From positions 1 through 64,000 of the forward strand of contig CT868241.1 of the NCBI GenBank assembly GCA_000165425.1: a stretch of DNA of 64,000 nucleotides, written 5' to 3'. This stretch comes from Paramecium tetraurelia (taxonomy: Eukaryota). The position numbers were made by a program, and so were the translations under genes. Numbering within the stretch: position 1 is the stretch's first letter; each line of letters opens with the position of its first letter. Below the pieces are notes generated by a model, which saw only the letters and a program-made list of their open reading frames with translations, did no database searches and had not been told where the DNA came from. This document shows, in pieces, positions 6,618 to 49,090 of this stretch.

Positions 6618-9600
6618 TCATTATTTTTGAGTTGGAGTATTACATGAATGAAATACAAGTCTTTAAAGAGGATTGTCATAATAATTATTAAGTTCTTGCA
6701 ATTTCTTTTAATGTTATAGTCTTGCATAATTAATTCTAGCCTTTTTTATAGATTCTGAGACATCAATTACCAGATTAATAATTAATAATAATGAAATCAT
6801 AGAAATATGAATCCATCCAAATAGCATTTGTTAATCCTTACTAAATTCGAAAGTGTAAATTAAGAGAGATCCTGTAATGAGCATAAAAAAGAATTCTCTA
6901 TATTTTAACTTATTTAAATCATAAGGTGATTGCAAAGGTGCAAACTTAATCAAGTATATTAAATAAAAGAAAGACTGCATTGATAATAATAATGATTGCA
7001 CTTATGGATAGTCAATAAACTTCACTATTATAAAAATATAGACAATGATTCTATAAAGTAGGAATGATTTGCAATTTGCTGCCCAAAATTCCATCTTAGA
7101 ATCCTTTAAAAAATATTTCCACTTTTGTTTATCTTTGATAAGAGTACATGTGATTGACATTAAGTATAAGCTTGTAACGGAAATAAACAATAAGCTAATT
7201 ATGGCATTAATACTATTGAATATTTAAAAGGGAGAATTAAAGTTATAATCTGGAAATTACAAAAATGAGCTGAATACAAATTGATGAAGGATTGCTTGAT
7301 AAACATTAAAAATTCCGAATGAAAAATATTCATTTTTGAACTTTAAAGCTGATAGTTAAACTTTCTATTAAAATAAAATAATTATTTTGAGAATCCTTCC
7401 ATTTTATTCAAATTTTTTGGATAAATTATAGAATAAAGTATTTAGTTAATTTGAAGATGCAATGCAACAAGCAAAAAAAATCAAAATGGATGTAATGACC
7501 GAGAAATAACAGCTTTTAGCATTTATCAGAAAGAATTAATTCAAAGAACTTGTTTAGCTCAAATTTTTATTAGATTTCTATTAAAAAGGTAAAGTTCCAC
7601 CATTCAATTTAATAAATAATTCATTTATTTGTAATTAATCTAGAATTGGTTAAAGTGAAACTTTAGTGTAAGTATTTAAGAATTCAATTAAATGAGGTGG
7701 AAATTGATATTACATATATCTTAGGTAAGACAATGATTACAAAAGGTCTAAGAGATTGAAAAACATTACAAAATTTCCAGTAACAATGGCTAAACCTGAA
7801 ATGGCTATCAGGGAATACATAGTAGCTTCATTTAACTTAACAACAGATTATAGCTTCTATTGAGTTTCTTCTGATAATATAAAAGGGTTTCCAAGGTTGA
7901 TTTTCATCTCGTATTTTTATAAGGTTAAATCAAACTCATTCAAGATGGCTTATTTACTTATTTTAATTTCAAATACAGGATCCTATATTGGTTGCTCAAA
8001 TATAATATAAATATGATAAACAGGGTAGTTAAGGGTTGTTGATAGATTCTAGATAGAATAAATAGTCAAGGTATAATTAGTTAAAGGGGTAATACTAAAC
8101 TTTGCTAGATCTTCTAGTGTTAAATCAGCTTCTAATTTCACTTATTAGGAGAAGGTGAGTTCAACTATTTGTGTTGAATTTACTTTTTCTGAGAGTACTT
8201 TTAAAAAGAATTAAGGAGAATTGATGAATGTGCATTAACTTAATTATCCTTGAGTATTTAAACATTGATAAGAATCTTCAATTACACAATTTTGAGAGCA
8301 TCCATCACCTCCCAAATAGTTGCCATCATCACATATCTCGAATTCAGTATTTAATTCTCCATTACCACATTAATTAATACAAACGTTATCAATTAGTAAG
8401 TAATTAATTTAACATCTTACTTCACTTAATTAGAAAAGTGAAGGTTCAAGCTCATTGATATTATTTATAACATCCTATATAACACATTTATGAGTTTAAT
8501 TATCCAATTAAAATTAATTGCTGTCACATTTTCTACATTAATTGGATTACTCACATTCAATGCAACCTAATGAACATTGAAATTAACATTAATAACAACC
8601 ATCAAATGGTGTATCGTTTCCATCTTCACACTGTTCAAGACCAGATATAATGAAACCATCTCCACAAATAGGAAGGCAAACAGAATCACTTAATTGAAAA
8701 TACTCCTCACAAATGATGCAAACATTTCCAATTTTACATTCGATACAAAAATCAGGACAAGCAATTTCAACTGGATCTATATCAACAATGGTTGGTTCTT
8801 CCATTTTATAACATACACCAAATGAACATGTTAGACATTAAGGATCACATGAATAGTTACAAATATGACATCCGTCATATGGTTCTAGATTAGCATCTTC
8901 ACATTCTTCAGGATCAACAATAATCATATCTCCGCAAATAGGTTTACATTTAAATTGATCTCTTAAGTATCCTGATTTACAAAGTTCACATATTCCGTTT
9001 GTACAAATTAAACATCCACTTCCACAATTTTATTTGCAACTTAAACAACCTGTAGAGACATCTTAATAAATGTCTATGTATTCACATTCTTCATCGCCTA
9101 CTTTTAAACCATCTCCACACTATTATTCACATTTATTATTTCTTAATTGATACCCATATTCACATTAGAGACATTCATCATATTCACACAGCGAACAATT
9201 ACTATCACAATTAAACTTGCATTGATTACAAGAATGAAAAACTTCTGAAAGCCCAACTTCACATTATTCATAACCTACTATCAGTGAATCTCCACAGATA
9301 GGTAAACACTATTTAGTTTTATGTGATTATCTAAATCCCACTTAACATCTTAAACATATACCATTATAACAAAATATACAGTGTTCAGAACATCCCAAAA
9401 GACAATGATCACAGAGATCAAATGGATTGCTATTTTTTGTCATCACATTACTCATAATCTCTATTTATAATTCCATCTCCACAAATTTATTAACAATGAT
9501 TGAAAGCGTTGAGATACCATCCATCAATTTCATTACATTTGAAACATTTTCCATTATGACAATGAGTACAATGAGCATCACATACAAATTTACAAATATG

Positions 9601-12303
9601 ACATCCATCTAAAGCATTATTATTACCATCATCACATTATTCATCTCCTTAGATCTTCTAGTCTCCACATCTTTCTAAACACTGATAAGTACCTTATTCA
9701 TAAGTAAATCCATCTTTACATTAATAACACTTACCTTGATGACAATTCTAACATTCATCCTAACATTTGTATTTACATTGATCACACCCGTCGAATGGAT
9801 TGCTATTTCCATCATCACAATCTTCCCCATCTACAATCAATTGATCTCCGCATATTGGCACACACTCTAAATTATATCCATCGTCATAAAATCCAACCAA
9901 ACATTGGCACTTAAATTTACTGATTGATCTATGGAAATCAGGATTACAAGAATAACATTAATCATAATCTGATCCAAAACAACTTTCACAATATTGGTTG
10001 CATTCTTTAATTACTGATTAAATTATTACTTAGACATTAATTGGTTGATAAATATTGAGATGGGTAACAAATGCACTCACCTTAATCCAAATAGAATTAT
10101 AAACTATCTGAGAATTCACATCTTGTACAAACTGATTCACTTATACATTCTAGACACCCTATTTAATTACAAGCTTAACAACTGTGGCTTTAGGTTATAC
10201 TATCAAATTTGACGTATTCGGTTGGTCTGCAATAATGAGTTGAATTATATCCAGTATATGATCCAAAATCACAATGTGATATTGTCGGTCCTGTGCATGA
10301 AGAACAAAAAGGTACACACTAGACATATTAACAATTCATACATAATTAACTACGACAAAATATTCTGAAACGTACATAAATGCCTCATCCAGATCAGTTT
10401 TTTATGTATCAGCCGATAATATTATATCTAATTAATTTGAGTTATGAGTAAATTGATGTTAATGAAAAATAGTAGTCTCATATCCATAATCTCCAACTAA
10501 ATTTTTTACCCCATTTTTAGGATTTTATATTTAACCAGATTAATGAGAGTCCAATTAATATTGAAACCAACCATCATTATAATCTCCATATGTAAAATTT
10601 ATTCTAAAACTCACTTAATAATGCGGCTTTAAATTTATAAATGTTTTTTAAAATTTTCCCTTACTCCAAACTAAAACTCCCCCTAACACTGATTTTTCCG
10701 GGACAAAAGAGTAAATAGCTCCTGTAAACGATGATTAAATAGTGTTATTTAAATAGGTGAAATTATCAACTACTTTAGAAACTTCTTCAAAAGTCGTGTT
10801 CATGTCATAAAATGCTTTTATTAAATATCTGCTATCTAAAATTAACAATATTTTATACTATCTATAAGATCTTCATAGTCTTCGCAAAAATTAATGTTAA
10901 ATTATGAGTGCATAGGACAAACGTTAACACACGTTCCTCTAAATAATTTAAAACCCAATTCACAAATTAAGCATTTAGAAAAAGTTTCACACTTTGTACA
11001 ATTACTTTAACATAATCCTTAATCAATAGTTACATTATTGAAACTCCAGAATTCGCTATCAAGTTTTTAAATAGCATAAAATTTAATAACGGGAGCCATG
11101 GTATATGTTTTTAAAACAGTTTCAATTCTCAAAAAGTCATAATTCATAGATGAACAAGTTAAACTTTCAAATATATTTAACTTTCCATTGACTATAGTGT
11201 AATTATCCATAGTTTTCTCTATTCTCATTTGAGAATATTAATCTACCGTTATGATTAATACAGAAGTTGGTTACCAACCAAAAAAGTGGAAGGATGCTCT
11301 TATCCTTAAGTAGACTAAACCTTCATTTTGTGGCAATTTCAATTACATTGATGAACTATAAGTAAATTTTCCAACTTAATCTTTTCCAGAACAAGTAACT
11401 ATCATATCTGAATTACTAACATGAAATGGATCTGGTTCATATATCCATGGGTCATAAGGTATTTTATCTCCATTACTAATCGTGGAAAATGCAAAATATT
11501 TAACCATAGATTTAATTCCTATTGTTAATTTTTTAATTACTTGGGTCAAATTAACAATAATTGGAGCTATCTGCTATATAGTAATCTATGGGGCATTCTT
11601 ATACACAACCAATCAACCTATGAGCATATTTATTAGCTTCATCGCATAAGCAAACACCTCCTATAAGTGATCCCTGGTAACAGGTAAGACAGTTAAATTT
11701 CGTGTCTCCGTCACACGAGGCACATGAAATATGGCATGAATTAGCATAAATTAAAATGTTTCTTAAACCAATACGCATTTCTTTATCCTCAAATTACATA
11801 CAATATGAAATTGTAAAGATAGGAGTTAAATGGTTTATTGTATCAGAAATAAAAGTCTTAATTTCTATTCTCTTTTTATTTAAAGTACAAGTGTATGAGC
11901 ATTATTAATCGCACACTTTAAAGTATTCTTATAAAGAGATTTAATCATAAAATCTTTCAAAAATCGACTGCTTTGATCCTGGTGAATCAATTATTTGAAT
12001 TTAAAAAGCAGAATTTATACCATTTTTTGATCGAATATAAATAACATCTGTGATTATTCTAAGTTAATAGTGAGGGTAATAAAATTTTTTCTCAAGGCTA
12101 CTTTTACTGTCAGATAATCTCATAAATTCTAAGTTATTTGTCAAACATTGCTTAGTCTGTGTTTCTTCTCTATCCTAATCTGAACATGTTTTATATGAAT
12201 TCCAACTATCTTATTTTATTATTAATAATTAATAAAAGTCACTGTAGATTAACATCCATTCAGAATTAGCCATCTGAATTAAGGCAACTAATATAAAAAG
12301 CAT
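6618..12303 (-). CDS. Large Cys-rich surface/membrane protein with 8 Myxococcus-type cysteine-rich repeats, furin/IGFBP-like repeats and multi-TM C-terminus
   Basis: Signal peptide [18 protein letters not shown](D/N)x..E.C.D.N..PFDGC-type repeats at ~9850, 9670, 9480, 9295, 9115, 8935, 8665, 8368; hydrophobic helices ~6780-7830; short introns near 11520-11540 and 10836-10858 (at least one more needed for frame); TGA 6620-6618. Confidence 0.85.
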
Positions 12304-13311: not shown

Positions 13312-16300
13312 TCATTTTTTTTATTCATATAAGGGGATTAGGTCAATTCTTAAATTTGAAATGATAGTTGAATTTTATATAATTGTTTATTTAGCTTATA
13401 TTAAACGGCTTGTGGCTATTGCTTTATAACATGTAATTGGATTAAGTTTCATTCTGATATTTGACCAAGAAAAATTATTAGCTTAAAAGGATTGTGTAAA
13501 TTATTAAACAAATTTACGATTTTTTAATTACTTCTATAAATTTAATTAAGTTTTAGATAGTTTAAATTGTTATAAGAAGGGATTTTTAGTTGCTTCCTAT
13601 AGAGTAGAATATTTTTGGAAACTTTATACTACTAATCCTGACTAAATAGCCAATAGATGTATAGAACAATCAGAGTTTTTGGCAATCAAAAATTCTGAAT
13701 CTTATGAAAAGGCTAGAGAATGCATTAAATCTAAGTTATTTTCAATTATTTTTATTTCTCCTTTTATTATATAATATAGGAATATGGTATTATTTTTATT
13801 TACCATAGCCAATATTTAATTATCAGCGGAGAAAATAGTTGCCCAAACAACCCCTAAATTCACTTCTAACAATTCAACTTATTCTCCAGTATCTAAGCTC
13901 CATTACCTAATAGTATTGTCATTTGATGTAGACACCAAAAGCTTTCCTTCAGGATTAAAAACCACTTATTGTATTGCCTCTGTATGACCTTTCAATACTT
14001 TCTCTTAATTTGTATCTTTTACAACCCAAATACGTATTGTAGTATCGCTACTTCCAGATGCCAATCTTAAACCATCATTAGAGAATCGAAGAGACCATAT
14101 AGTAGCTGAATGAGCAATTAGTATCTAAACATCTATTTGTGATTTCAGATTCCACAATCTTATTTTCTTGTCTCTTCCTGCAGATGCCATGGTTTGACCA
14201 TCAGCAGAAAAGGCAATCACTTCTACTTAATCAGAATGTCCAATTAATTTTTATCTTTCTTTTTCAGATTTCAGGTCCCATAATCTTATTGAGTAATCTA
14301 TACAAGCTAATGCCAGTGATTACTAATCAGGAGATTAAGCTACTGAATATATCCACATAGTATCACCATTTATTTATTGCATTTCTTTAATCGATTTGGT
14401 ATTCCATAATAATATAGAGTTGTCTTCACTTGCTGATACTAATGCCTCTCCATTAGGGGAAAATGCAATAGAATATACACATCCAGTATGTCCATCTATT
14501 TTCTACATTTCTGTACCAGTTGTTATATCCCAAATTCTAATTGAATGGTCGCTACTTCCAGATGCAAGAACTTTTCCATCTGGATAAAATGCTATTGATT
14601 ATACTGCATCTGTATGACCTTCTAGTTTCATTATGTCTTACCCTGAAACTGCATCCCATAATTATATGATATAATCTCCTCCAGCTGATGCCAAAATCTG
14701 TCCATTTGGAGAAAAGATCACACATTATAATGAATCATTATGTTCACTTAATTCTAATATTTCTTATCCTAATTTTGTATCCCATATTTTAACCAAATAA
14801 TCACCACTAGCAGAGGCTAATCTAGAACCATCACAAGAAAATGCAACTGACTATACAGAATCGCTGTGTCCTAGTAATTTAGTAATTAATTTTCCTGTTT
14901 TAATATGCCATAATATGATCGATTGATCTTCACTTCCAGATGCTAATAAATCTTCTTTTGGTGAAAATGCAACTGAGCACACCCAATTAAGATGTCCTTC
15001 TAATTTTGAGATTTCTTTTCCTGATTCTACATCCCATAATCTAACAGATGTATCACTACTACCAGATGCTATCAATTATCCTTTTGGACAAAATGCAATT
15101 GATTATACCCATCCAGAATGACCATCTAATCTACATAATTCTTTCCCAGATTTCAGATCCCAAATTCTTATTGATTAATCTTGACCTCCACCAGAAGCAA
15201 AGACTAATCCATCTGGAGAGAATGCTACAGAAGTGATTAATCCAAGATGACCTTCTAACATGTTCATTTCCCTTCCAGATTTAGTATCCCAAAGTCTTAT
15301 TGATTAATCATCACTGGCAGATCCTAAGATTGAACCATCTGGGGAATAAGCAACACTGTAAACAGTTTTTGTATGTCCTTCCAATCTCTAGATATTCTTT
15401 CCTGATTTGACATCCCAGATTCTAATAGTTGTATCGTTACTAGCAGACGCTAAAAACTATCCATCAATCGAAAAGGCAACAGACCATATCCCATCGTCAT
15501 GATCAGTTAATTTTTTTAGCTCCTTTCCACTTTTAATATCCCATAATATTATTGTTCTATCAAAACTTCCAGATGCTAATAATTGGCTGTCTGGCGTAAA
15601 TGCAACTGAATGAACAGGAGCTGAATGGCCTTCTAATTTTCTAATCTCTAAACATTACTTTAGATCCCATATTCTTATAGTTAAATCATCACTGCCAGAT
15701 GCCAATAAATGACCTACAAATGAAAAGGTTGCTGACCATATCCAGCCATCATGTCCATTCAACTTATTAACTTATTGACCTGAAATAGGATCCCATAAAC
15801 GGATAGATTTATCATTACTTGCAGAGGCAATCATTTAACCATCAGGTGAAAATTACACTGAGCGTACCTAATCTGTATGTCCCTCCAATTTCAATATCAA
15901 ATATCCGAAACTCACATCCCATAGTCTCACTGTATTATCACTGCTCCCAGAGGCTATGATTAAACCATCTGGAGAATAGGCAATTGACCTAACCCAACCG
16001 GTATGTCCTGATAATTTCAAAATCTCTTTTCCTGATTTGGTATCCCATACTCTTACTGTATAATCATTACTAGCGGAAGCCAATGTTTATCCATCTGGAG
16101 AGAAGGCTACTGAAGAAACTGAATCAGAATGACCTTTTAGTGTTGGTAGTTCATTTGAATTGATATTAATCCATCTACAGTTTGATAATTAAGCCCTGTT
16201 GAAATTGCATTAACTAATATTTACATTATCCATTTTAGATTCATTTAATTTAGTACTATAAAATGAGGCACCGTTAAGATTGGCATTTTTTATTTAAATG

Positions 16301-19300
16301 TGTCCTAAATCTAAATAGTTAAAAACCTCTCCTATTTAATTAAGTATAAATAAAGAATTCCCTGCCTCTTGTTAGATGGGTTCTAAGCAGGATAATTTTA
16401 CTATTGCCATTAGAACCTCCTTTAATCTTTGATTTTAACTAATTTCAGACTTTAAAAAGTGAATCATTCCTTAATATTATTCTTCTGAAAAATTGAGAGT
16501 ATTAAACTTGCTCTCTTTTATTGTCCTCACAATTAATTCAACCAATTTTTATACATTCTCTTTGCCAACACTAATAAACTCTTTATCCAAGTTAATTAAT
16601 TTATTTTTGTCTTATTAATTTCTTAATTTATCATTGATGTAAACATTTAGATCTTCTAGATTTAGAGTAGGTAATCTAAATAGGAAATCAAGGATGTATT
16701 TAGATACATAAAATTCTTAAATGGATTTATGAATAAATGAGATAGTATTGCCTTTCTGATTAAGAAGTGCGCATTTTCTTAGTAGATATTTTTATTCTGC
16801 TATTATTCCTTGTTGGCCAAAGTATTTATCAATCCATTCTTGTTGTTGAGTTCTTCCGTCATTTGAAAATTCTACTTAACTCTTTTTATTATATTGGGCT
16901 TGAGTTAACTACCTTTCTGTTAATTCTAAAGCAAGGGACTATGAAATATTTAATAGATCTGTAAAGAAGATTTCCTAATCAATTGCTTTGCCAATCATTT
17001 TTAGCTTTTGCACTTATTAATTATGATAGTAATCTATGAAAGCTTGATAAAAGGCGTATGGTGTATAATTCTAATTCTTTAAAGCTTATTTGATTAATTG
17101 TGCTTCTTATCCAAAATCAAAGGATTCATCATTAATCACTAAGAGTTTTCTCTCAATTTTAATTTAACTCAAAGGAGAATAATTTTTAAAGATTGATTTC
17201 ATTTCCAATTGTTTCCAGTGATTGAATGCACTCAACTGTTCAACTTCAATATCGAATACTTAATCTAAGTTTTGGGAATATTTCTTAATCAAATATTATT
17301 ATTCTTTTAAATTAACATAATTTTTTAGGAAATTACTTTTAACTTAATTGATATCAGAGGTTGCTGATGTCAATTTAGGAAAGATTTAAGCTACTATTTC
17401 AAGCATAAATGGCATTTACACAATACTTCTAATATTAATTTCATCCATAATCTCTATATATCGATTGGCACTCCAGATTTCTGATAGTTCTTTCTACAAA
17501 CTTTAGAGCAATTCTTCATGTTGGTCCTATCTTATTTCTATTTTAGGATTTTATGTGATAGAATTAATAATTGAAGTAATTTGATTCCTATTTAAAAATA
17601 AATTCATAAAGTTTTTGCCTTCTAAACTTTTTGATACAATCATTTAATTAATGGGCAACCATATTTTTTCGAATTCTTCAAAGCTGAAAAGTTTTCGCTC
17701 AATTTATATGCAATATTCATAAAAGTTGAGGATTTTTTATTTAACTAATTAAAGTACAAAACTTTTAAAGTATTGATTTTATTGTAGAGATGAAAACGAT
17801 TACAATTCCACTTCCTTCAATTTTCCATTGCCTTCAAACCATGTTTGATATAGATTTGAATTCAAGATTTCAGTTCTTGAAGTATAGATAACTTTTGGTT
17901 TCCTCCATATTTCATTTAATCTATTAAGAACGTATAAATTCTATTGTGAATACTCAGTTTTTAGTTCGTCATACCCATCCATAATTATAATAAGAGACAT
18001 CTTACCTTTTTGTATTTCTTCTTTTAATTGGTTAATTTAAATTTTGTCAAAGGATAATTGTTCAGATTACAGTGTCTCTTCTATGGCACTATGTAAAGGA
18101 TCCTTTAAACTTGGCAATGAAACAAAAATTGGTATTAGTATTTGTTCCTTTTTATGTTGTGTTTGCTATTATTCCCAAAGATATTCTTCTATTTTCCTCG
18201 CTATTGTACTTTTGCCAGATCCTGCTTAACCATGTATCAATAAAATATCTGATTAATCTTTGTACTCTTTTCCTGAATGATCATGCCATATAAAGTTATT
18301 AACTATTGAAATCTTATTTTAATTATCATCATCGAACATGGGTATCAACTTAGATTCTACACCATTTGATTTTTCTCTGCCATAGAGTGGAACAAATATT
18401 TTTGTTAAATCTATTTTCTTCTTATTTAAAAGAACAGTCTACTTTCTCAAATCAAGGAGTTATTAAAAGGACTTGCCTCTAAGGATAGAAATGTCTCTTC
18501 CTATTATATTTATAGTATTCTGAAGGTTTTCCAATTTATTCATTATCTATCCCAAATCTTTTTTAATATCTACTAAAAAGTACAAAGTAATATTTAACAA
18601 TTATTGCATCTCATTTATATTCCCAAGAAACTCCTAAAATTATTGATACTCAGATTGCATAGTTGATATTTTTTGATTTCTACTATCATCGTCAAACTCT
18701 TATCTAATCTCTTATTCTAATTCATTGATGTATTTTAATTTCATTTAAAATGCCTTTCTTAACTTCTCATTAATTGTAACTTAATTTCTTGAAAACAATT
18801 ATTGTTGTAATGATATTATCTCTTTATTCTTCAAGAGTGCTCTTACTCTTTGATCTTTTTCTATGCCCCATACTTAAATGAGCAGTTCTGTCACATAGGA
18901 TTAGATTTATTATTCTTCTGATAAACTCTGTATCTCAAGCAATTAAAATACCAAGCATTCTCTTATTTGATATTCATTATTATTGATAAAGTCTTTGATT
19001 TCTTCTAATTGCTTTTAGACTAATTTCTTAATATATTACTCAGATGATTAAATTGAATCTATACTCTCTTAAAACAAATCTTCATTCAAATATTTCAATA
19101 TTGCATTTAAAAATTCCATGTCATAATTTAAATTGTTTAGCATTTCAAATAACTATTTTGTCTTGATTTTTCCCAGCAATTCAACTATTTCATTAATATA
19201 TAAATTATTTAATTCTTATTTAAAGTTATATACTATCTACTGCCAACTAGTCTGATCAATTTCTTTTTTGTTTACAAACTTTTGAAGTTCTTAGAATTTA

Positions 19301-22113
19301 TTCATTAATGTTTGAGTATCTTAAGATTTAGTGATTAATTTGTAAATTAACTCCTTATTTATATTGCTTTTCTCAATAATCTCATCAAGTATTTAAATAT
19401 CTCCCTTTAATTTAGCTAGTATTTCTTTGTAATAGATATCAAGTTCGTTTTATTGTAGGTCCTCTACATCATTACAATCTACTTTAAGAAGATCCTATTG
19501 CAATGTTGACAATAAGACTAAGACATCTTAAATTTCAGAATTAAACGCATTTTGATCAGCCAAATTAATTAATGATTCGATTACATCGATATTCTTGACT
19601 GTTTAGTATAGTGACTTCAATGGATTGGCTTTTTCAGATAAGGAATGAACTCCTATGAAGTTATCATTGAATTTTGATAGATGCTATTTTAATTCACTTT
19701 ATAATCGATAATGCTACATTAGAATAGTCTTGCTCTTTTCAAATTTCTCTCTTTCATCAAACATATTGGATTATTTTTATAAGGCATTGATCATAAATTA
19801 GAAATACTCATCTAAACTTAATTTGAACTTTTCTATTAATACACCTTCTCTTTTTGATTCCATTTATGATATAATGACTATCTCAGATTGTTTTTGAATT
19901 AATTTATTGATATTTAAGTACTCTTGTCTAAACATGTCTAATATTTTATTAAATAATTCAACTTGTCTACAAAATGTTGAAAGTTTTACAGAAAATTAAA
20001 TCATTGTAATTTCCTTTTACTTGAAGTTATCAACTGATAGACTATACTACAAATCCTATTTTGTTTCTTCTAAATTCATTAAGTAATTCCATTATATATT
20101 TTCTATCTACTTTAAAGATTAAAATATGTTTTCAAAATTAATTTTACAGTGTTTGTTATTTAACAGAGGAATAGAATGTGACTCAAACTGTAGCTAAATT
20201 ACAATAAGCTCCTAATAAATCAAATTTTGATCTTAAATTTACCTTTTGTTCTAATTCTTCACTTTTTCTACCTAATCTTCAATAATTTCACTATAGATAT
20301 GATACTGTAAGGAAGTATCAGATATATAAGTTGATTTACTTATATTTTTTAAACTTAGAGAATCAAGAAAGATTTTATCTTAAGATATAGACTTAGATAA
20401 TTTAGTCAAAACATTTGAAAAGGAAGATTCAAAATCAGTTAAAGAAGTTTGTGTTTGAATTAAGTTTTCAATATGTGAATTCGAGGTTGAATGATTATAT
20501 GAAGTTAATTACAACTTAATGACATGATACGATCCATATAATTTTGATTAAACAGTGATTAACTACAAGAGGAGTGGGACAGTTTGATATATTAAATCCT
20601 CATTTTTTTGAATTATTTCTTATAAATCTTGAGTTTGCTCAATAGACTCCTTTTATTATTAAATGGTGTTTACTAACTCTATTAGTCTAGGATTGTTTTC
20701 CTCCATTTAAGAATTGTGAGTTTCTAGATTCATAATTCTTATAATTTAGTTTTAATTTTCTTTATTTTGGAAAAGCAATTAATATATTTCTGAAATGAAA
20801 GGATCTATTGAATTGAATAGTTTTGTATGGGATGAAAAATGAAAAGTGACATAGTTATCTAATGCATTAAATTTTAGGGTTTTGGTCTTCTCAATCAATA
20901 GCAAGGATAGAGATTTAAAATTGTATAAGCCAAATTACTACAATATCGGTTTTACTTTTTTGTCTAATGTAAACTCTAAATTTAGTTTAATGGAATTAGA
21001 ATCGTAAGGTAAAGGTTTTAAATTGTATTAAGTAATAAATGATTCCCAAGTTCCTAAGCTATTTTGTGAATTTGATTAGTATTTGATCCAATCTTATTTT
21101 TATATAATTGGACGAAAAAGCAACAAATCTGATAAGAAATATATCCATAAGAAATGGATAGTGGAACTTTTAGATTCTCTGATTTGCTCTTCATATAATT
21201 TTTCTAGTTGTTTGACTACTCTGCTAATTCCTTGATCATTATTTTTTAGGTAGGCAATCATTGACCATTTCAAACATTCAAAATTGTAATATTTTTGATA
21301 TATCTTTTCGCTTTTATACTCTTTGTATTTATCATAGATTTCTTCAGCAGCTTTAAATAAGAACTTAATCAAATCATCACTTGGAGTAAGAGTTGCAGCA
21401 GATGTAATTAAACCTTTCACAAATAACTGAAAAAGTTGGAAATTTCCATCGACAGGAATTAGCTAAATAGCAGCTTTGACAATTGAGATATGGTAGTTGA
21501 TCCCATTTTACCAAAGTGTATAGGCTTCTACTGATACATGAGATTCTAATTCTTTGATAGTGTTTAAAATATTCTTCTTATCTTCCTTCCTCATACATCT
21601 ATCATTGTTTTGTCTATAAAAATTAAATATGGTTTTGGATAAATCTGAGCATATTTTCAAAAGATAGAAACAATATAATCCTGATGTTCTTACATAAATT
21701 AAAGCGGATTGCAACAGTTATAAGAAGCATTCTAAAATGCAATCATAAAATAATTATGAATTCTCCTTTTCTCCTATCCAATGAATTTATTCTCTAGAAT
21801 CATATAGCCATTAATAGCAAATCGAGAATTCTGCCCTTTGATTTTCTTCGTTTATTGTTTTAGCAATTTGCACTATTATTTTTGATCTATATCTCAAATT
21901 CTCTAAAAAATCTTTAGGCAAGTTCTCTATTAAATGTTCATCTTGATTTTTCACAAGGAATGGATTCTGATTCTATTACTTTGAACCTACACACCCACCT
22001 CCTCTTAGATTAGATAATTTATCTAATGTTATTATTTTTACTTCATTTTGGAAGTTACTTTCCTTACTTTTTCTTGATACTACAAGAGATTTTTAAATCA
22101 TTTTTTGTTGCAT
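13312..22113 (-). CDS. NACHT (STAND NTPase) + pentapeptide + WD40 NLR-like protein, ~2933 aa, apparently intronless
   Basis: All minus-strand track fragments share one frame with ATG 22113 and TGA 13314-13312; Walker A LIHGQAGSGKST (18231-18205), Walker [10 protein letters not shown] (~17990-17965), pentapeptide stretch [23 protein letters not shown] (~16290-16170), ~20 WD40 repeats 16140-13640. Confidence 0.92.
13640..16140 (-). repeat. Array of ~126-nt (42-aa) WD40 repeats: 18 canonical + 2 degenerate
   Basis: L.GH...[22 protein letters not shown] periodic every ~126 nt. Confidence 0.9.
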
Positions 22114-22293
22114 TTCAATTTAAAAATAGAAATATTATATAATGATAATAGTTAGAACTAGGAATAAATTTAACAATAATTCTTGAAACTGTTAATCCCT
22201 TAATTTAGTAACAGTATTTAAAATAAGGAATAATATGTTGATATATATAAGATTTATTTAGATAATATCATATATTTTGATTATTTATCAAAC

Positions 22294-23590
22294 TCATTAA
22301 AATATGATTTCAAATATTTAACACTCTACAATATTTGGAGTTAACTATCCAAATAAATAAGTGGAATTTTCTTAATTGCCAAACTTCCAAACATTTTGCA
22401 TTCTTTGTTATGGAATTAAAAATGTATATCCAAGTTTCGAATATCCATCAGCAAAATCTGTGTCAATGTATAGATCATGACCGGCTCCAAAAATAGGTCC
22501 ACTTTATGCACGACAGCAAATTGCTCCATTTTCATATCCTAATCTTTATTCATAAATCTCGTTCTTATCTTATGAAAATAGAAATGTTGAGTATGATGGA
22601 TCAGATCTGTGAGTAATCAGTTATTCACATATCCATTAACATGGAGAATACCCTCCAAATATTGCTTAACTAGATGACTTGAATACCATTAACAAATTAG
22701 ATTTTTTATTACAGATTTTCCAAAATGAATTAGCATTCAATCCATCCCTTGTACCTTAAAAAATCAATTCAGCATTTTTTATTTCATACTGCTACTTTTT
22801 TTTTATCTAATTGATGATTTTATTATAAAAACTATCATTTAAAAGATAACGAGTAGGAGGCTTTGGTTATAATTGTTTAATAAATTCACAGTGTGTAAGT
22901 ATTAAGGATTTAAGCAAAGCCTCTAATTTTTGAAATTCAGGAAAATTAACAGGGTCTTCATTTTTTAATTTCTATTAACTCAATACGGAACTTTCTTATA
23001 TTCTTTATAATAAGGAATTTTTGCATTCTTATGAAACATTCTAAAAGTATTAGTGCACATCTGTTTCTGCTTATTCAATAGCTTTGGGATTGATTGAATC
23101 TCCTAATTGCTCTAGATTAGTCATAATTGACTTAAACTCATGGAATTTCATTATCTATTATTTATTCATATATACCTATTCTAAATTCTATCGAATTACA
23201 GACTTTGAATCCAAAAATAATTTAATATTTTGTTACAATTCCTCTAACATCTTTGTAAATCCATTTTAAATATCTAAAATAAAGGATTCAAATTGTTTGA
23301 TTTATTTATTTAAACTAATTTCATCATGTTTTGCAAATTCTCCAAAAAAATCCTTTATATCTCCAGACACTTCTAGTTTGGAGAATAGAAATTCTGGTGA
23401 CTTCAATCCCTTATATAATGAAAAACTAAATTACTGTACTCATATTTATGAGATTCTAAAAATTAAATTTCGGATTCGTGTCAATTAAGTCCTGTTAGCA
23501 CTAATCACAAATGAATTCGGTTCTGTCTTTATCAGTACTTATGAATTGGACATACGAACCATCATGTTTATAGCATGGTATTTTATACAT
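22294..23590 (-). CDS. TLDc-domain protein with N-terminal CxxH..CxxC motif and coiled coil
   Basis: MYKIPCYKHDG..FICDQC; TLDc motifs LIFQGTRDG, IFGGYSPCQW, TFLFSQDKNEIY, GPIFGAGHDLYI; 25-nt intron ~23410-23434; TGA 22296-22294. Confidence 0.88.
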
Positions 23591-24242: not shown

Positions 24243-25692
24243 TCAAAATTCCTTAAAACTTCTGATTTAGATTTCCTTCGAGCCTGCATCCCATGTGACT
24301 AACAACTCTCCATCATCAGTCATTTGCCCAAAAATATGATAATCATTAAATTAAATTGACTATTCAACCACAAAGCGACCATTTTTTTACATTCTCATTA
24401 AATTCACAAAATTGCCATTTTTATTTAATAGAAGGCATTTTGACTTAGAGTAGAATTATGAAAAGGAACTATCACATTTATTAGATCCAGACTTAACAGC
24501 AATTTCACTCGTCCTCCTAAACTAATTAGTAACTCTATCGATTTCGTATACATGCATTTAATCTTGAGCTGAAGGTTGGAATGTAAATAATTTATCATTA
24601 ATAAAGCATAATCTAAGTCCTTTTTAATCAACTTTGATCTTTTATCTAACATTCCAATTTGAATCTAATTCTGACCTTTCTATCACTAATATTTAATAAT
24701 CAAGCGAACTAGAAATCAATTTATTTTATTATTCATTTAAACTAATAGAAATTACGCTTTCGGTATGATCAGTAATAGTTTATGAACACTTCCACTAATT
24801 CTATTTTATCCAAAATTTAATAGTTTTATCTTAACTAGCTGATATAATTAAATCATCTTTATTATTCAATAATAAACACAATATCGAACCTAAATGTCCA
24901 TTCAATATTTATTCAAAATTCCATTAATTTTCTGCATTTTCCTTCCATATTATAATTGAATTATCTATAAATCCAGACACAAAATTATTTGAATTCTTCA
25001 TAAAGTTTAAAGTGTAAACTTAATTTTTATTCTAACATATTTATAGTAATTCCAACTTCCCCTAAATATATTAAAATACTTTAATATCATTTTGACTTGC
25101 TGCTACAACAAGTGAAGAATTTTTATTTAAAGCAATAGCATTACACCATTAAAGTTATTTATATGAATAGGTATTAGTGAGCTTAAAGGATAGTGGCTTC
25201 TTTCCCTTTTAATCTTCTCTATTTTATTTTTATGTTAAGTTGTTTTTATTATTGAATTTTTGAATTACTTGGTCTTTTTGTTCCAAATATTCCATTTATT
25301 CTCTCTATCTTTCTTCAATTAGTGAATCATATTTCTGCTAAATCAACATAGTTTCAGATCTCAATGTTTATTCCTTATTATTAACTTCTCTTGAGATAAT
25401 AAAATTTAAAGATGCTTTAATCTCAAAAATTATTTGATTTGTTAGAATTGGGTGTAAGAAATTTGGTGAAAAATTAGATTATGATTAAATTAAGGGTTTA
25501 CTGCTGACTTTACAAATTTAAAAACTTGAAGGAGGATGGAGTACATCCAATTGAATTTGATCAAGAAACGAACTAATTCTCTAATAGGAAATCTATGATG
25601 AAAATATAATATATTCTTACTTCAATTGATTATTAAACACCATTGAAACAATCTTCTGATATATTCTTAAAATATTTTGTCGAAATAGACAT
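24243..25692 (-). CDS. WD40-repeat protein (ciliate-expanded family)
   Basis: WCNAIALNKNSSLVVAAS, GHLGSILCLLLNNKDDLIISASQDKTIKFW, C-terminal FGQMTDDGELLVTWDAGSKEIQIRSFKEF*; start tentative (28-nt first intron). Confidence 0.8.
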
Positions 25693-46958: not shown

Positions 46959-49090
46959 ATGGGTAATTTGTGTCTTAGAAAGAAGGAGAAATCCTAATAG
47001 CCCTAAGTATATAATTTTTTAACAAAAGTACAACATTGCTGATGAAAATCACATCACCTATACTCCTGCCACTTTAGATGAGTTAGAAAAAAAAATTAAA
47101 ATTGAATCATAAGGTATGTACAATTACCATATTTTAGATGACAATAGCTCGGGTATCTATATTATGTATTTCTAGAAGCTTTGATATTGAATGTTGACAA
47201 TAAATAAGACTAGTTTTAATAAGGGAATAACCAAGCGACGATTCAAATTCTTAATGATCTAGATAAGGATGCCCAAAAGCTTATTAAACAAGGAGAAATA
47301 GCTAAAGCAGAATTATCAAAAATTAAATAATAGGTAATAATTAAACTAGTTTTAGTAAATTGATGATGCTGTTTTGAATATGGAGCAACAGACATTGTAG
47401 TAAAATCTTCTAAACAAGCCTTAAGAAAGTGATGTATAAAGAGCATAGTTTGAAGAAGAAAGAAATAGAGAGCATTAGGAAGCTTAAAAAAAAAGAGAAA
47501 AGTAATAATAGGAAGAAATGATTCGAAAAGAAAAAGAAGCTGAAATTTTAAGGTAGTAAAAAGAGCAAGAAGCAAGAATTGCATAAGAATAAGAAAACGA
47601 AAAAAGAAGGTAACTTCAATAAGAATAGGAAAGAATAAGAATTGAGTAAGAGCATGAAAGACAAAGATAACTTTAAATTGAATAAGAGGCTCAAAAATTA
47701 AGATTAAAATAAGAAGAAGAGGAAAGAATTAGATAAGAATAAGAAGCTGAAAGATTGAAAATAAAACAAAAAGAAGAAGAACGAATAAGATAATAACAAG
47801 AGGCTGAAAAATTAAGATTATAATAATTGGAGAAAGAGAAAATTAAATAAGAATAAGAGGCTGAAAGACTCAGATTAAAATAAGAAGAGGAAGAAAGAAT
47901 AAGGCAAGAATAAGAAGCTGAAAGATTGAGATTAAAATAACAAGAAGAAGAAAGGATTAAATAAGAATAAGAAGCCGAAAAATTGAGATTATTAAAATTA
48001 GAAGAAGAAAAAATTAGATAAGAACAAGAAGCTGAAAAATTGAGGCTTTAAAAATTAGAGGAAGAAAGAATTTAGTCAGAATAAGAAGCTGAAAAATAAA
48101 GGCTATAATAAATAGAGGAGGAGAGAATTAGATAGGAATAAGAAGCTGAAAAGTAAAGGCTTTAATAATTAGAGGAAGAGAGAATTAGATAAGAATAAGA
48201 AGCTGAAAAATTGAGGCTTTAAAAATTAGAAGAAGAAAGGATTAAATAGGAATAAGAAGCTGAAAAATAAAGGCTATAATAAATAGAGGAGGAGAGGATC
48301 AGATAGGAATAAGAGGCTGAAAAATTGAGATTATAAAAATTAGAAGAAGAAAGAATTAAATAGGAATAAGAAGCTGAAAAATTAAGGCTTTAATAATTAG
48401 AAGAAGAAAGGATTAAATAGGAATAAGAAGCCGAAAATTTGAGGCTTTAACAATTAGAAGAAGAAAGAATTAGATAAGAATAAGAAGCTGAAAAATTGAG
48501 GTTATAAAAATTAGAAGAAGAAAGAATTTAATAAGAATAGGAAGCTGAAAAGTAAAGGCTTTAATAATTAGAAGAAGAAAGAATTAAATAAGAATAGGAA
48601 GCTGAAAAATTGAAGCTTATATAATTAGAAGAAGAAAGAATCAGACAAGAATAGGAAGCAGAATAATAAAAGCTTAAATAATTAGAAGAAGAAGAAGCTG
48701 AAAAATAAAGGATTTAATAATTAGAAGAAGAAAAAATTAGATAAGAGTAGGAGGCCGAACAATTATAATAATAACAAGAAGAATAGAATTAAAATGAAAA
48801 CTTAGATTAAAATAAAAATAATCTATATAAATTTGTTTGGTAATTTTATTTAATTATTTAAGGGCTCAAGGAGGTAGCAAGGTTTTGATAACTGGAAGCT
48901 GGTTAAATTGGACAGATAAAATCGAATTAATATAAATTGATAATAAGTAAATTTAGTTTAATTTTAAAGATTTGAAATTGAAGTATAATTACCTTCGGGT
49001 AAGTATGAATTCAAGTTTATTGTAGACGATGATTGGAAAGTCAGCGATTAATATGAGTATGATGGTTAAAATAATTTCATCATTATTTGA
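46959..49090 (+). CDS. N-myristoylation-motif protein with long charged repeat and C-terminal CBM48 (AMPK-beta-type glycogen-binding) domain
   Basis: MGNLCLRK; FVW-AQGGSKVLITGSWLNW..LPSGKYEFKFIVDDDW..NNFI*; several short introns. Confidence 0.85.
47670..48780 (+). repeat. 57-bp tandem repeat, ~19 copies (EQEAEKLRLQQLEEERIRQ)
   Basis: ga(a/g)gctgaaaa recurs every 57 nt from ~47688 to ~48660, then a shortened unit. Confidence 0.92.

What the first reader, a model, noticed from the sequence alone, without database searches (positions are those of the whole stretch)
21979..22008. NLR-like protein carries a ubiquitin-type LRGG cleavage site fused to a cryptic myristoylation/palmitoylation signal
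Seen: residues 36-45 of the 2933-aa NACHT-WD40 protein read [10 protein letters not shown], preceded only by a 35-aa low-complexity leader. Established: LRGG is the ubiquitin/ISG15 C-terminus after which deubiquitinases (and viral PLpro-type proteases, LXGG) cut. G-x-x-x-S-K is the N-myristoyltransferase consensus, and a Cys at position 2 is a typical palmitoylation site. Inference: cleavage after LRGG would expose GCVGSK and send the STAND receptor to membranes. This could be constitutive DUB processing, or a tripwire for pathogen/endosymbiont deubiquitinases, and would be a protease-gated innate-immune system in a ciliate.
Basis: partly seen in the sequence, partly recalled or inferred. Interest (0 to 1): 0.82.

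Follow-up and report, generated by a model that had tools for sequence, protein, structure and literature searches.

The report
Conserved LRGG–Gly-Cys lipid-anchor site in Paramecium NLRs
A family of giant NACHT-WD40 proteins in Paramecium keeps, behind a throw-away leader, an almost invariant ten-residue site that reads like a ubiquitin-tail cut site joined in register to a fatty-acid anchor signal, which suggests a protease-exposed membrane anchor that nobody has yet tested.

Summary
Residues 36-45 of a 2933-aa intron-less NACHT-WD40 ORF (window 13312-22113, minus strand, ciliate code) read [10 protein letters not shown]. The organism is a Paramecium of the aurelia complex.

The motif is not chance. 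It is the hallmark of a Paramecium gene family:
- 27 of 38 proteins gathered here carry it within their first 200 residues.
- Of the other 11, nine are N-truncated models or fragments and two are odd models.
- Among 23 distinct versions, Leu is kept 22 times, Arg 22, Gly 23, Gly 22, Gly 23 and Cys 21. Ser/Thr follows at +5 (18) and Lys/Arg at +6 (15).
- The leaders in front (7-138 aa) and the linker behind are unconserved.
- Elsewhere the paralogs are only 22-35% identical.
- A P. bursaria member and a distant metagenome relative (LLGG-GNSSSK) keep the same logic.

The Ser/Lys register fits N-myristoyltransferase only if the cut falls after LxGG. AlphaFold puts the motif in a disordered tail ahead of an ARM/HEAT-like helical domain.

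My best reading, at about 0.55, is a propeptide cut that exposes Gly-Cys for myristoylation and palmitoylation. Cleavage, lipidation and the protease are not shown. The leaders are not ubiquitin-like, so an ordinary deubiquitinase is doubtful. The pathogen-tripwire idea remains speculation.

The parts
13312..22113 (-). Whole gene: intron-less ORF of 2933 aa (ciliate code). Order of parts: leader, [10 protein letters not shown], alpha-solenoid domain, long helical region, NACHT, WD40 array.
   Evidence: Gap-free 94% identity over 2913 aa to the P. octaurelia protein P0003.
22009..22113 (-). Leader (proposed propeptide), residues 1-35. Second ATG at codon 5.
   Evidence: The P. octaurelia ortholog starts 16 residues later. 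Leaders in the family span 7-138 aa and share no conserved column.
21997..22008 (-). L36-R37-G38-G39: proposed P4-P1 of the cut site.
   Evidence: Among 23 distinct family versions: L 22, R 22, G 23, G 22. L36, G38 and G39 are invariant in alignment A2.
21979..21996 (-). G40-C41-V42-G43-S44-K45: proposed new N-terminus, a Gly-Cys-x-x-Ser-Lys dual-acylation consensus.
   Evidence: Among 23 distinct versions: G 23, C 21, S/T at +5 18, K/R at +6 15. 23 of 27 fit the pattern G-{EDRKHPFYW}-x(2)-[STAGCN]-{P}, against 24.6% of all Gly positions in these proteins.
21064..21948 (-). All-alpha N-terminal domain, residues about 56-350, ARM/HEAT-like solenoid with no Pfam family.
   Evidence: AF2 with 14-sequence alignment: mean pLDDT 76.1, pTM 0.72, residues 1-61 below 50. 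VIA-align best Z 10.6 to importin-beta and exportin, which is generic. No Pfam family.
17761..18246 (-). NACHT NTPase domain, residues 1290-1451. Walker A GQAGSGKS and Walker [11 protein letters not shown] are visible in the sequence.
   Evidence: sequence.
13864..16158 (-). WD40 propeller array, residues 1986-2750.
   Evidence: 17 WD40 stretches, E 3.5e-193.
22288..22296 (-). TGA-GTT-TGA ending the upstream TLDc gene in the same frame. It bounds the 5' limit of the NLR ORF.

Best explanation
L-R-G-G | G-C-x-x-S/T-K is a maturation site shared by a Paramecium family of NACHT-WD40 (NLR-architecture) proteins. An endoprotease with ubiquitin-tail-like LxGG specificity removes a dispensable N-terminal leader. 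The exposed Gly is then N-myristoylated post-translationally by N-myristoyltransferase, and the neighbouring Cys is S-palmitoylated. This tethers the ARM/HEAT-like N-terminal domain, and with it the NACHT-WD40 machine, to a membrane. Shown here: the motif, its near-invariance, its position in a disordered tail, the variable leader, and the register. Inferred: the cut, both lipidations, membrane targeting and the identity of the protease. The whole family keeps leader+LxGG instead of simply starting M-G-C. From this I infer that the exposure step itself matters, that is, it is gated or delayed rather than merely constitutive.
For: (1) Family hallmark. phmmer of the N-terminal 600 aa against 1.84e9 representatives gave 28 hits. 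Together with 7 long hits and 2 cluster members, 27 of 38 proteins carry [LIMVA]xG[GC]G in the first 200 aa and 25 have exact LRGG. All 9 other full-length proteins (2564-3552 aa: P0003, P0032-P0039) have LRGGGC once, at residues 12-57. (2) A sharp island of conservation. In 23 distinct versions P4 L 22, P3 R 22, P2 G 23, P1 G 22, P1' G 23, P2' C 21, P5' S/T 18, P6' K/R 15, while positions before P4 and after P6' are unconserved. In A2 (14 sequences, mean column identity 34%) the only invariant columns are L36, G38, G39, G40 and W102. (3) The invariant positions are the ones the model needs. P4 Leu and P2-P1 Gly-Gly are what LxGG proteases require, and P1' Gly is an absolute NMT requirement (established enzymology, recalled). 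(4) Register. S/T at 5 and K/R at 6 score 18 and 15 of 23 when the new N-terminus is P1' Gly, against 1 and 0, or 11 and 0, for the other two Gly registers. (5) Phylogenetic depth. P. bursaria P0039 has LRGG-GCGLCK. A 21-24%-identical metagenome protein has LLGG-GNSSSK, a second classical myristoylation-type sequence, behind a 113-codon leader that is open in the standard code. Its codons differ from the window's (CTA AGA GGA GGT GGG against TTG TTA GGA GGA GGA), so selection acts on the protein. (6) The motif lies in a segment with pLDDT below 50 in both AF2 models, followed by a linker and a confident helical domain. (7) The leader start is labile even between 94%-identical orthologs.
Against: There is no experimental or RNA evidence for the 5' end. 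The three RNA-type runs that were laid leave 21334-22321 uncovered. The leaders show no ubiquitin-like family or fold, and cellular USP/UCH enzymes use the ubiquitin body for affinity (recalled), so the protease is unknown. One subfamily (GCGSF[KR]: 4 of 27 proteins, 2 of 23 distinct versions) has Phe at +5, which is poor for NMT. The simple PROSITE-type myristoylation pattern is permissive: it fits 24.6% of all Gly positions and 22 of 27 in the other registers too. Family members are paralogs and orthologs, not independent samples. Two models (P0017 AGGGC, P0025 no motif) deviate, though they look mis-modelled. The N-domain gives no functional clue because its fold match is generic.
Confidence: 0.55

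Rival explanations
1. An uncleaved short linear motif. The ten residues act in place, for example as a palmitoylated Cys on a flexible Gly hinge, or as a docking peptide for a partner or for the protein's own WD40 propellers (autoinhibition). The leader is merely a tolerated N-terminal extension.
For: The motif sits in a disordered segment, as linear motifs do. No protease is identified, and the leaders lack a ubiquitin fold. The GCGSF[KR] subfamily fits NMT poorly.
Against: This reading does not explain why the conserved positions coincide with two independent enzyme consensus sequences in the correct order and register. It does not explain why the distant relative swaps Cys for Asn yet keeps LxGG-G-x-x-x-S-K. 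It does not explain why everything N-terminal of P4 is free to vary in length from 7 to 138 aa.
Confidence: 0.25
2. A gene-model artefact. The real protein starts M-G-C by some route not seen in the ORF, such as a 5' micro-exon, an unusual initiation or a different transcription start, and the leader is not part of the protein.
For: With TGA as the only stop, upstream in-frame ATGs arise easily. Annotated leaders differ widely in length. RNA data do not cover the 5' end.
Against: No ATG adjoins GGG-TGT. By my reading, the AG dinucleotides inside AGA-GGA-GGT could only give M-x-G-G-G-C or M-G-G-C, never M-G-C. Leu and Arg before the Gly run are conserved as amino acids with different codons. 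The 113-codon leader of L001 is open in the standard code. In the window gene the next Met is +135, beyond conserved helices. The P. octaurelia model is also intron-less and aligns without gaps.
Confidence: 0.05
3. Self-processing at Gly-Cys. An N-to-S acyl shift at G40-C41, as in Hedgehog/intein or Ntn-hydrolase chemistry, releases the leader and leaves an N-terminal Cys.
For: Cys41 is kept in 21 of 23 distinct versions directly after Gly. Gly-Cys is the Hedgehog and intein scissile pair (recalled).
Against: The domain after the Cys is an alpha-solenoid in the AF2 model, with no Hint or Ntn-type beta fold modelled. The metagenome relative has Asn and P0012 has Ser-Cys at that place. This reading does not explain Leu at P4 or the Ser/Lys register.
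Confidence: 0.04
4. A chance resemblance with no function.
For: LRGG is only four residues, and the myristoylation pattern is permissive (24.6% of Gly positions).
Against: The motif is near-invariant in 23 distinct versions at 22-35% overall identity, across Paramecium species including P. bursaria. LRGG is found nowhere else in 46,367 family residues.
Confidence: 0.01

Closest known systems
Ubiquitin-fusion and UBL precursors (polyubiquitin, Ub-ribosomal protein fusions, NEDD8 and ISG15 precursors) cut after LRGG by deubiquitinases
   Same: Identical P4-P1 (LRGG). The cut would free the N-terminus of the downstream protein, and Gly follows the cut as in the NEDD8 precursor (recalled).
   Different: The part in front is 7-138 aa, unconserved, and shows no ubiquitin family or beta-grasp. 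The ubiquitin body that these enzymes grip is absent.
Cryptic post-translational N-myristoylation after caspase cleavage (BID, actin, gelsolin, PAK2; recalled)
   Same: An internal Gly that fits NMT is exposed by endoproteolysis and then acylated to retarget the protein to membranes.
   Different: The site is LxGG, not Asp-X. It lies at the very N-terminus behind a short leader, is conserved across a whole gene family, and is combined with a Cys for palmitate.
SH4-type dual acylation signal M-G-C-x-x-S/T (Src-family kinases, G-alpha i/o; recalled)
   Same: G-C-[GCV]-x-[ST]-K consensus.
   Different: The Gly is not next to the initiator Met, so co-translational myristoylation is impossible as encoded.
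LXGG sites of viral papain-like proteases (coronavirus PLpro) and (M/I/L)XGG-X or GG-X sites of clan-CE maturation proteases (adenain, ASFV pS273R; recalled). Also LRGG leader joints on giant-virus proteins noted earlier in this scan (e1-5981988, e1-5523392, unchecked).
   Same: A linear LxGG|G site in a non-ubiquitin context, at the boundary between a variable N-terminal leader and the cargo.
   Different: Here the carrier is a host (ciliate) protein family. No viral or host protease gene is linked to it in the window.
Protease 'tripwire' NLRs (NLRP1, CARD8; recalled)
   Same: NLR-architecture protein with a protease-accessible site in a disordered N-terminal stretch.
   Different: Those work by N-degron 'functional degradation' through a FIIND domain, and their sites evolve fast. 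Here the site is invariant, no FIIND is present, and the predicted outcome is acylation.
Plant CC-NLRs anchored by N-terminal myristate and palmitate (for example RPS5; recalled)
   Same: A STAND immune receptor held at a membrane by Gly-myristate plus Cys-palmitate.
   Different: The plant proteins start directly M-G. There is no leader and no cut site.

Membership tests
NACHT / STAND NTPase (NLR architecture) | NACHT domain with Walker A and Walker B | tested here: met
   PF05729 E 1.3e-13, 51.6 bits against a cut-off of 26.7, residues 1290-1451. GQAGSGKS and [10 protein letters not shown] are visible.
NACHT / STAND NTPase (NLR architecture) | C-terminal repeat sensor array | tested here: met
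   17 WD40 stretches, residues 1986-2750.
NACHT / STAND NTPase (NLR architecture) | Role in immunity or cell death | not testable with these tools
   No functional data. The N-domain fold match is generic.
Ubiquitin-fusion precursor | Beta-grasp ubiquitin-like fold N-terminal of LRGG | tested here: not met
   Leaders can be as short as 7 aa. No Pfam family in 7 proteins scanned. The window leader is disordered in AF2. The L001 leader is modelled as two helices plus disorder, at low confidence.
Ubiquitin-fusion precursor | LRGG immediately before the released protein | tested here: met
   25 of 27 exact LRGG.
LxGG protease substrate (DUB / PLpro / clan-CE type) | Leu (or aliphatic) at P4, Gly at P2 and P1, small P1' | tested here: met
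   L 22, G 23, G 22, G 23 of 23.
LxGG protease substrate (DUB / PLpro / clan-CE type) | Actual cleavage | not testable with these tools
   Needs proteomics or in vitro assays.
N-myristoylated protein (NMT substrate) | N-terminal Gly after Met removal | tested here: not met
   As encoded, Gly40 is internal. The feature is met only if the proposed cut happens.
N-myristoylated protein (NMT substrate) | Sequence after the Gly fits G-{EDRKHPFYW}-x(2)-[STAGCN]-{P}, with preferred Ser/Thr at 5 and Lys at 6 | tested here: met
   23 of 27 fit the pattern. S/T at 5 in 20 of 27 and K/R at 6 in 19 of 27. The pattern itself is recalled from PROSITE PS00008.
N-myristoylated protein (NMT substrate) | Covalent myristate (and palmitate on Cys) | not testable with these tools
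   Needs metabolic labelling or mass spectrometry.

The most novel reading that the evidence does not exclude
The leader-LRGG joint is a bait. A pathogen protease that must recognise ubiquitin-tail-like LxGG joints would clip the leader. Candidates are a viral clan-CE or PLpro-type maturation protease, or a deubiquitinase effector of an intracellular bacterium. The freed Gly-Cys would then be acylated and drive the NACHT-WD40 receptor onto membranes to switch it on. This would be a protease-gated lipid switch in a protist NLR family, and the site would stay invariant because the pathogen cannot change what its protease cuts.
Probability: 0.12. Interest if true: 0.9.

Novelty: new variant of a known kind. 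Interest (0 to 1): 0.7.

Why it matters
If the cut and the lipidation are real, this is the first family-wide case where an LxGG (ubiquitin-tail-type) cleavage, rather than caspase cleavage or Met removal, exposes an N-myristoylation/palmitoylation signal. It would sit on the N-terminus of NLR-architecture proteins in a ciliate, a lineage where nothing is known about how such proteins are deployed. It makes a concrete, cheap test possible: one peptide by mass spectrometry, or three point mutants of a 60-residue reporter. It also points to an unidentified protease with linear LxGG specificity in Paramecium or in its parasites. Full-text searches found no paper that joins LRGG with Paramecium (0 papers) or LXGG with tripwire (0 papers). 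From titles and abstract starts only, none of the papers returned for LRGG+myristoylation (all 3), post-translational myristoylation+deubiquitinase (all 5), Paramecium+NACHT (20 of 32 listed) or ciliates+NLR+NACHT+WD40 (1 listed of 2) is about this.

Tried and rejected
**RNA support for the 5' end.**
- One search listed 24 runs. Four were laid: X16 (probably DNA), X18 and X19 (RNA by guess) and X20 (RNA).
- The RNA-type contigs cover only the upstream gene (22322/22378-22700) and two short low-depth pieces of this gene (21184-21333 and 20818-20985).
- Nothing lies over 21334-22321 and there are no joints, so the start and any splicing are undecided.

**Searches that gave nothing or failed.**
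- Own genome: none is held.
- Pfam on the N-domain and the leaders: nothing meaningful.
- Foldseek against PDB: no match at E<=1e-3.
- VIA-align wide: only generic helical-repeat matches, Z up to 10.6, below the about 13 that the tool gives as noise for helical repeats.
- ESM Atlas on the L001 leader: no usable hit. Two further Atlas calls were not accepted.
- Metagenome search with alignment A2: failed for lack of a 7-10 column conserved block. The single-protein search returned only the contig of P0022 itself.
- Profile search A2 'near': returned only P0022 because the candidates were crowded out.
- Neighbouring genes: a TLDc protein, a WD40 protein, a DUF4215 protein and one ORF without a hit. 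No protease or NMT among them.
- The paper search was badly designed (min_terms 2) and says nothing about LRGG.

**Ideas rejected.**
- Splicing to M-G-C: the AG positions do not allow it, and there is no ATGG|GT donor in the leader (read by eye).
- Mitochondrial presequence with Arg at -2: some leaders are 7 aa and acidic, and the cargo is a 2,900-aa cytosolic-type protein.
- Bacteriocin-type double-glycine leader: no conserved -7/-12 hydrophobic pattern.
- N-domain as a cis-protease: no invariant Cys/His pair.
Full report
**What is there**

The window has about 25% G+C. Read with the ciliate code, it carries on the minus strand one uninterrupted ORF of 2933 codons, 13312-22113. Pfam places a NACHT NTPase at residues 1290-1451 and 17 WD40 stretches at 1986-2750.

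The closest database protein is a 2922-aa 'NACHT domain-containing protein' of Paramecium octaurelia. It is 94% identical over 2913 aligned residues with no gap. So the gene is intron-less and the organism is a close relative of that species.

M1 is the first in-frame ATG behind the double TGA that closes the upstream gene 180 nt away. A second ATG is codon 5. The octaurelia model starts 16 residues later (MKRHFQNEV...), so the beginning of the leader is not fixed even between near-identical orthologs.

**Is the motif more than chance?**

Yes, clearly. I searched the first 600 residues against 1.84 billion representative proteins and got 28 hits at E<=1e-3, 22-41% identical. I fetched the 14 whose alignment reaches the query's residues 14-35:
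- 11 carry exact LRGGGC.
- 3 carry variants: LRGGGSC, IRGCGCC and AGGGC.

A profile search for longer proteins added seven full-length NACHT-WD40 proteins, and cluster look-ups added two more. All nine (2564-3552 aa) have LRGGGC once, at residues 12-57, and nowhere else.

- 27 have the motif in the first 200 residues, and 25 of them have exact LRGG.
- Of the 11 without it, nine are N-terminally truncated models or fragments by their alignment coordinates (P0009, P0015, P0021, P0023, P0024, P0028-P0031).
- P0015 starts at a Met just behind the position of the motif in its relative P0016.
- P0017 has AGGGC.
- P0025 reads KWRRLL where P0017 reads AGGGCV. This looks like the same DNA read in another frame; that is my inference from the protein sequences only.

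LRGG occurs 25 times in the 46,367 residues of these proteins, always at this site. It occurs once in the six-frame translation of the whole window.

**Shape of the conservation**

Collapsing identical 12-mers leaves 23 distinct versions:

| Position | Residue | Count of 23 |
|---|---|---|
| P4 | Leu | 22 |
| P3 | Arg | 22 |
| P2 | Gly | 23 |
| P1 | Gly | 22 |
| P1' | Gly | 23 |
| P2' | Cys | 21 |
| P3' | Gly, Cys or Val | 20 |
| P5' | Ser or Thr | 18 |
| P6' | Lys or Arg | 15 |

The columns immediately before P4 and after P6' show no preference.

In a 14-sequence alignment with 34% mean column identity, the only invariant columns of 400 residues are L36, G38, G39, G40 and W102. That alignment includes the variants, P. 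bursaria and the metagenome relative. An earlier 10-sequence alignment gave L36-C41 plus four others, but I had picked motif-bearing sequences for it.

Leaders in front are 7 to 138 residues as annotated. From the nearest Met they are typically about 7-60 residues.

**Does it fit the two enzyme consensus sequences in register?**

The simple myristoylation pattern (recalled from PROSITE) fits 23 of 27. It is permissive, though: it fits 24.6% of all Gly positions in these proteins, and 22 of 27 for the two neighbouring Gly registers as well.

The stronger NMT determinants are Ser/Thr at position 5 and Lys/Arg at position 6 counted from the Gly. These discriminate:
- 18 and 15 of 23 when the new N-terminus is the Gly after LxGG.
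- 1 and 0 for one of the other two registers.
- 11 and 0 for the other.

So the positions that never vary are exactly those that an LxGG-specific protease (P4, P2, P1) and NMT (P1' Gly) cannot do without. The preferred positions follow in the right frame. The specificity rules are established knowledge that I recall, not results of a call.

**Depth and independence**

All named members are Paramecium: tetraurelia, octaurelia, primaurelia, pentaurelia, sonneborni and, more distantly, bursaria.

One unnamed metagenome contig (L001) encodes a 461-aa relative, 21-24% identical, that consists only of leader plus helical domain.
- Its ORF has no TAA or TAG until a terminal TAA, so its owner probably uses a standard-like code.
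- Its 113-codon leader is therefore truly coding.
- Its site reads LLGG-GNSSSK.
- The Cys is replaced by Asn, giving another classical myristoylation-type start, while LxGG-G-x-x-x-S-K is kept.
- The codons for Leu and two of the Gly differ from those in the window. This points to selection on the peptide, not on the DNA.

**Structure**

AlphaFold2 with the 14-sequence alignment gives mean pLDDT 76 and pTM 0.72. Residues 1-61 are below 50, and a confident all-helical domain runs from about 56 to 350.
- Foldseek finds nothing at E<=1e-3.
- The aligner that does not depend on Foldseek gives Z up to 10.6 with importin-beta, exportin-4, HspBP1 and similar ARM/HEAT solenoids. By the tool's own note this is within the range of unspecific helical-repeat matches.
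- The domain has no Pfam family and no invariant Cys/His pair that could make it a protease.

The model of the metagenome protein is poorer (pLDDT 58.6). It shows two helices in the leader and again a low-confidence stretch around LLGG. I found no ubiquitin-like family or beta-grasp in any leader examined.

**How it most likely works**

My best explanation, at about 0.55, has four steps:
1. The leader is a propeptide.
2. A protease cuts after LxGG.
3. The new Gly is myristoylated post-translationally and the Cys is palmitoylated.
4. The solenoid-NACHT-WD40 protein is thereby attached to a membrane.

All four steps are inferred. What is shown is a sequence pattern that matches each of them.

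One further inference follows. A protein that only needed constitutive acylation could start M-G-C. Retention of a leader plus cut site in at least 23 diverged copies argues that the exposure step itself is useful, that is, delayed or conditional.

Such enzymes bind the ubiquitin globule, and short LRGG peptides are very poor substrates (recalled). Proteases that cut linear LxGG joints are mostly viral (PLpro, adenain, ASFV pS273R; recalled). Earlier unchecked notes of this scan describe LRGG joints behind leaders on giant-virus proteins. That keeps the tripwire idea alive at about 0.12, but nothing here tests it.

**Rivals**
- An uncleaved linear motif, either a palmitoyl hinge or a docking peptide (0.25), cannot be excluded without experiments. 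It does not explain the double consensus in register.
- A gene-model artefact (0.05) is contradicted by the conserved Leu-Arg, the open 113-codon leader of L001, the absence of a usable ATG or splice acceptor, and the next Met lying 135 residues downstream in this gene.
- Hedgehog- or intein-like self-cleavage at Gly-Cys (0.04) lacks the required fold, and the Cys is replaced in two members.
- Chance is excluded (0.01).

**Known or new?**

Each piece is known: LRGG processing of ubiquitin-type precursors, protease-exposed cryptic myristoylation, Gly-Cys dual acylation, and acylated plant NLRs. The combination appears undescribed in what I could search: a short non-ubiquitin leader, an LxGG joint and a dual-acylation signal as the conserved N-terminal signature of an NLR-architecture family in a ciliate.
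- 0 papers hold LRGG with Paramecium.
- 0 hold LXGG with tripwire.
- 3 hold LRGG with myristoylation, and 5 hold post-translational myristoylation with deubiquitinase.
- 32 hold Paramecium with NACHT, of which 20 were listed. 2 hold ciliates, NLR, NACHT and WD40, of which 1 was listed.
- Of the papers listed in these four searches, none concerns this. I judged that from titles and abstract starts only and read no paper.

Subscription-only literature was not searched. I rate the finding a new variant of a known kind, interest 0.7. It is a sharp, well-supported sequence prediction with cheap decisive tests, but there is no biochemical evidence yet.

Noticed in passing
window 22294-23250 (-): The upstream neighbour is a 318-aa TLDc-domain protein (PF07534, E 4.9e-26). 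It is the well-covered gene in the RNA-type contigs. Contigs of two runs (X18, X19) both stop at 22322, 26 nt before its TGA at 22294-22296, without loose ends. The 3' end is unexplained.
   Followed up: partly
L001 1-1750 (metagenome contig): This is a stand-alone 461-aa protein made of a 113-aa leader, LLGG-GNSSSK and the same helical domain, with no NACHT. It ends in TAA and has no in-frame TAA or TAG, so it comes from an organism with a standard-like code. The N-domain plus site therefore exists as an independent module.
   Followed up: partly
proteins P0017 and P0025 (Paramecium octaurelia / primaurelia models): P0025 reads ...IHFKWRRLLFSQNKPTG where its relative P0017 reads ...IHFAGGGCVLVNQLKSG. 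WRRLL is what GGGC-type codons would give one base out of frame, so P0025 may be a frameshifted copy or a mis-modelled gene. There is no DNA to check this.
   Followed up: no
window 47191-48888 (+): A 565-codon ORF in which 101 codons are TAA or TAG (read as Gln). It lies in a stretch of strong positive GC and AT skew at 44-52 kb. It is either an extremely Gln-rich protein or a non-coding region.
   Followed up: no
window 6618-9830 (-): A 1070-aa protein with five Cys-rich DUF4215 repeats (E 7.1e-40), followed by a long hydrophobic C-terminal part that looks multi-pass membrane by eye.
   Followed up: no
window 24243-25643 (-): A separate 466-aa WD40-repeat protein two genes upstream of the NLR gene.
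   Followed up: no
window about 16160-16310 (-), residues about 1935-1985: Between the NACHT region and the WD40 array the sequence ([39 protein letters not shown]) looks like pentapeptide repeats by eye. The paralog P0034 carries PF13599 in its precomputed Pfam list. Not scanned separately.
   Followed up: no
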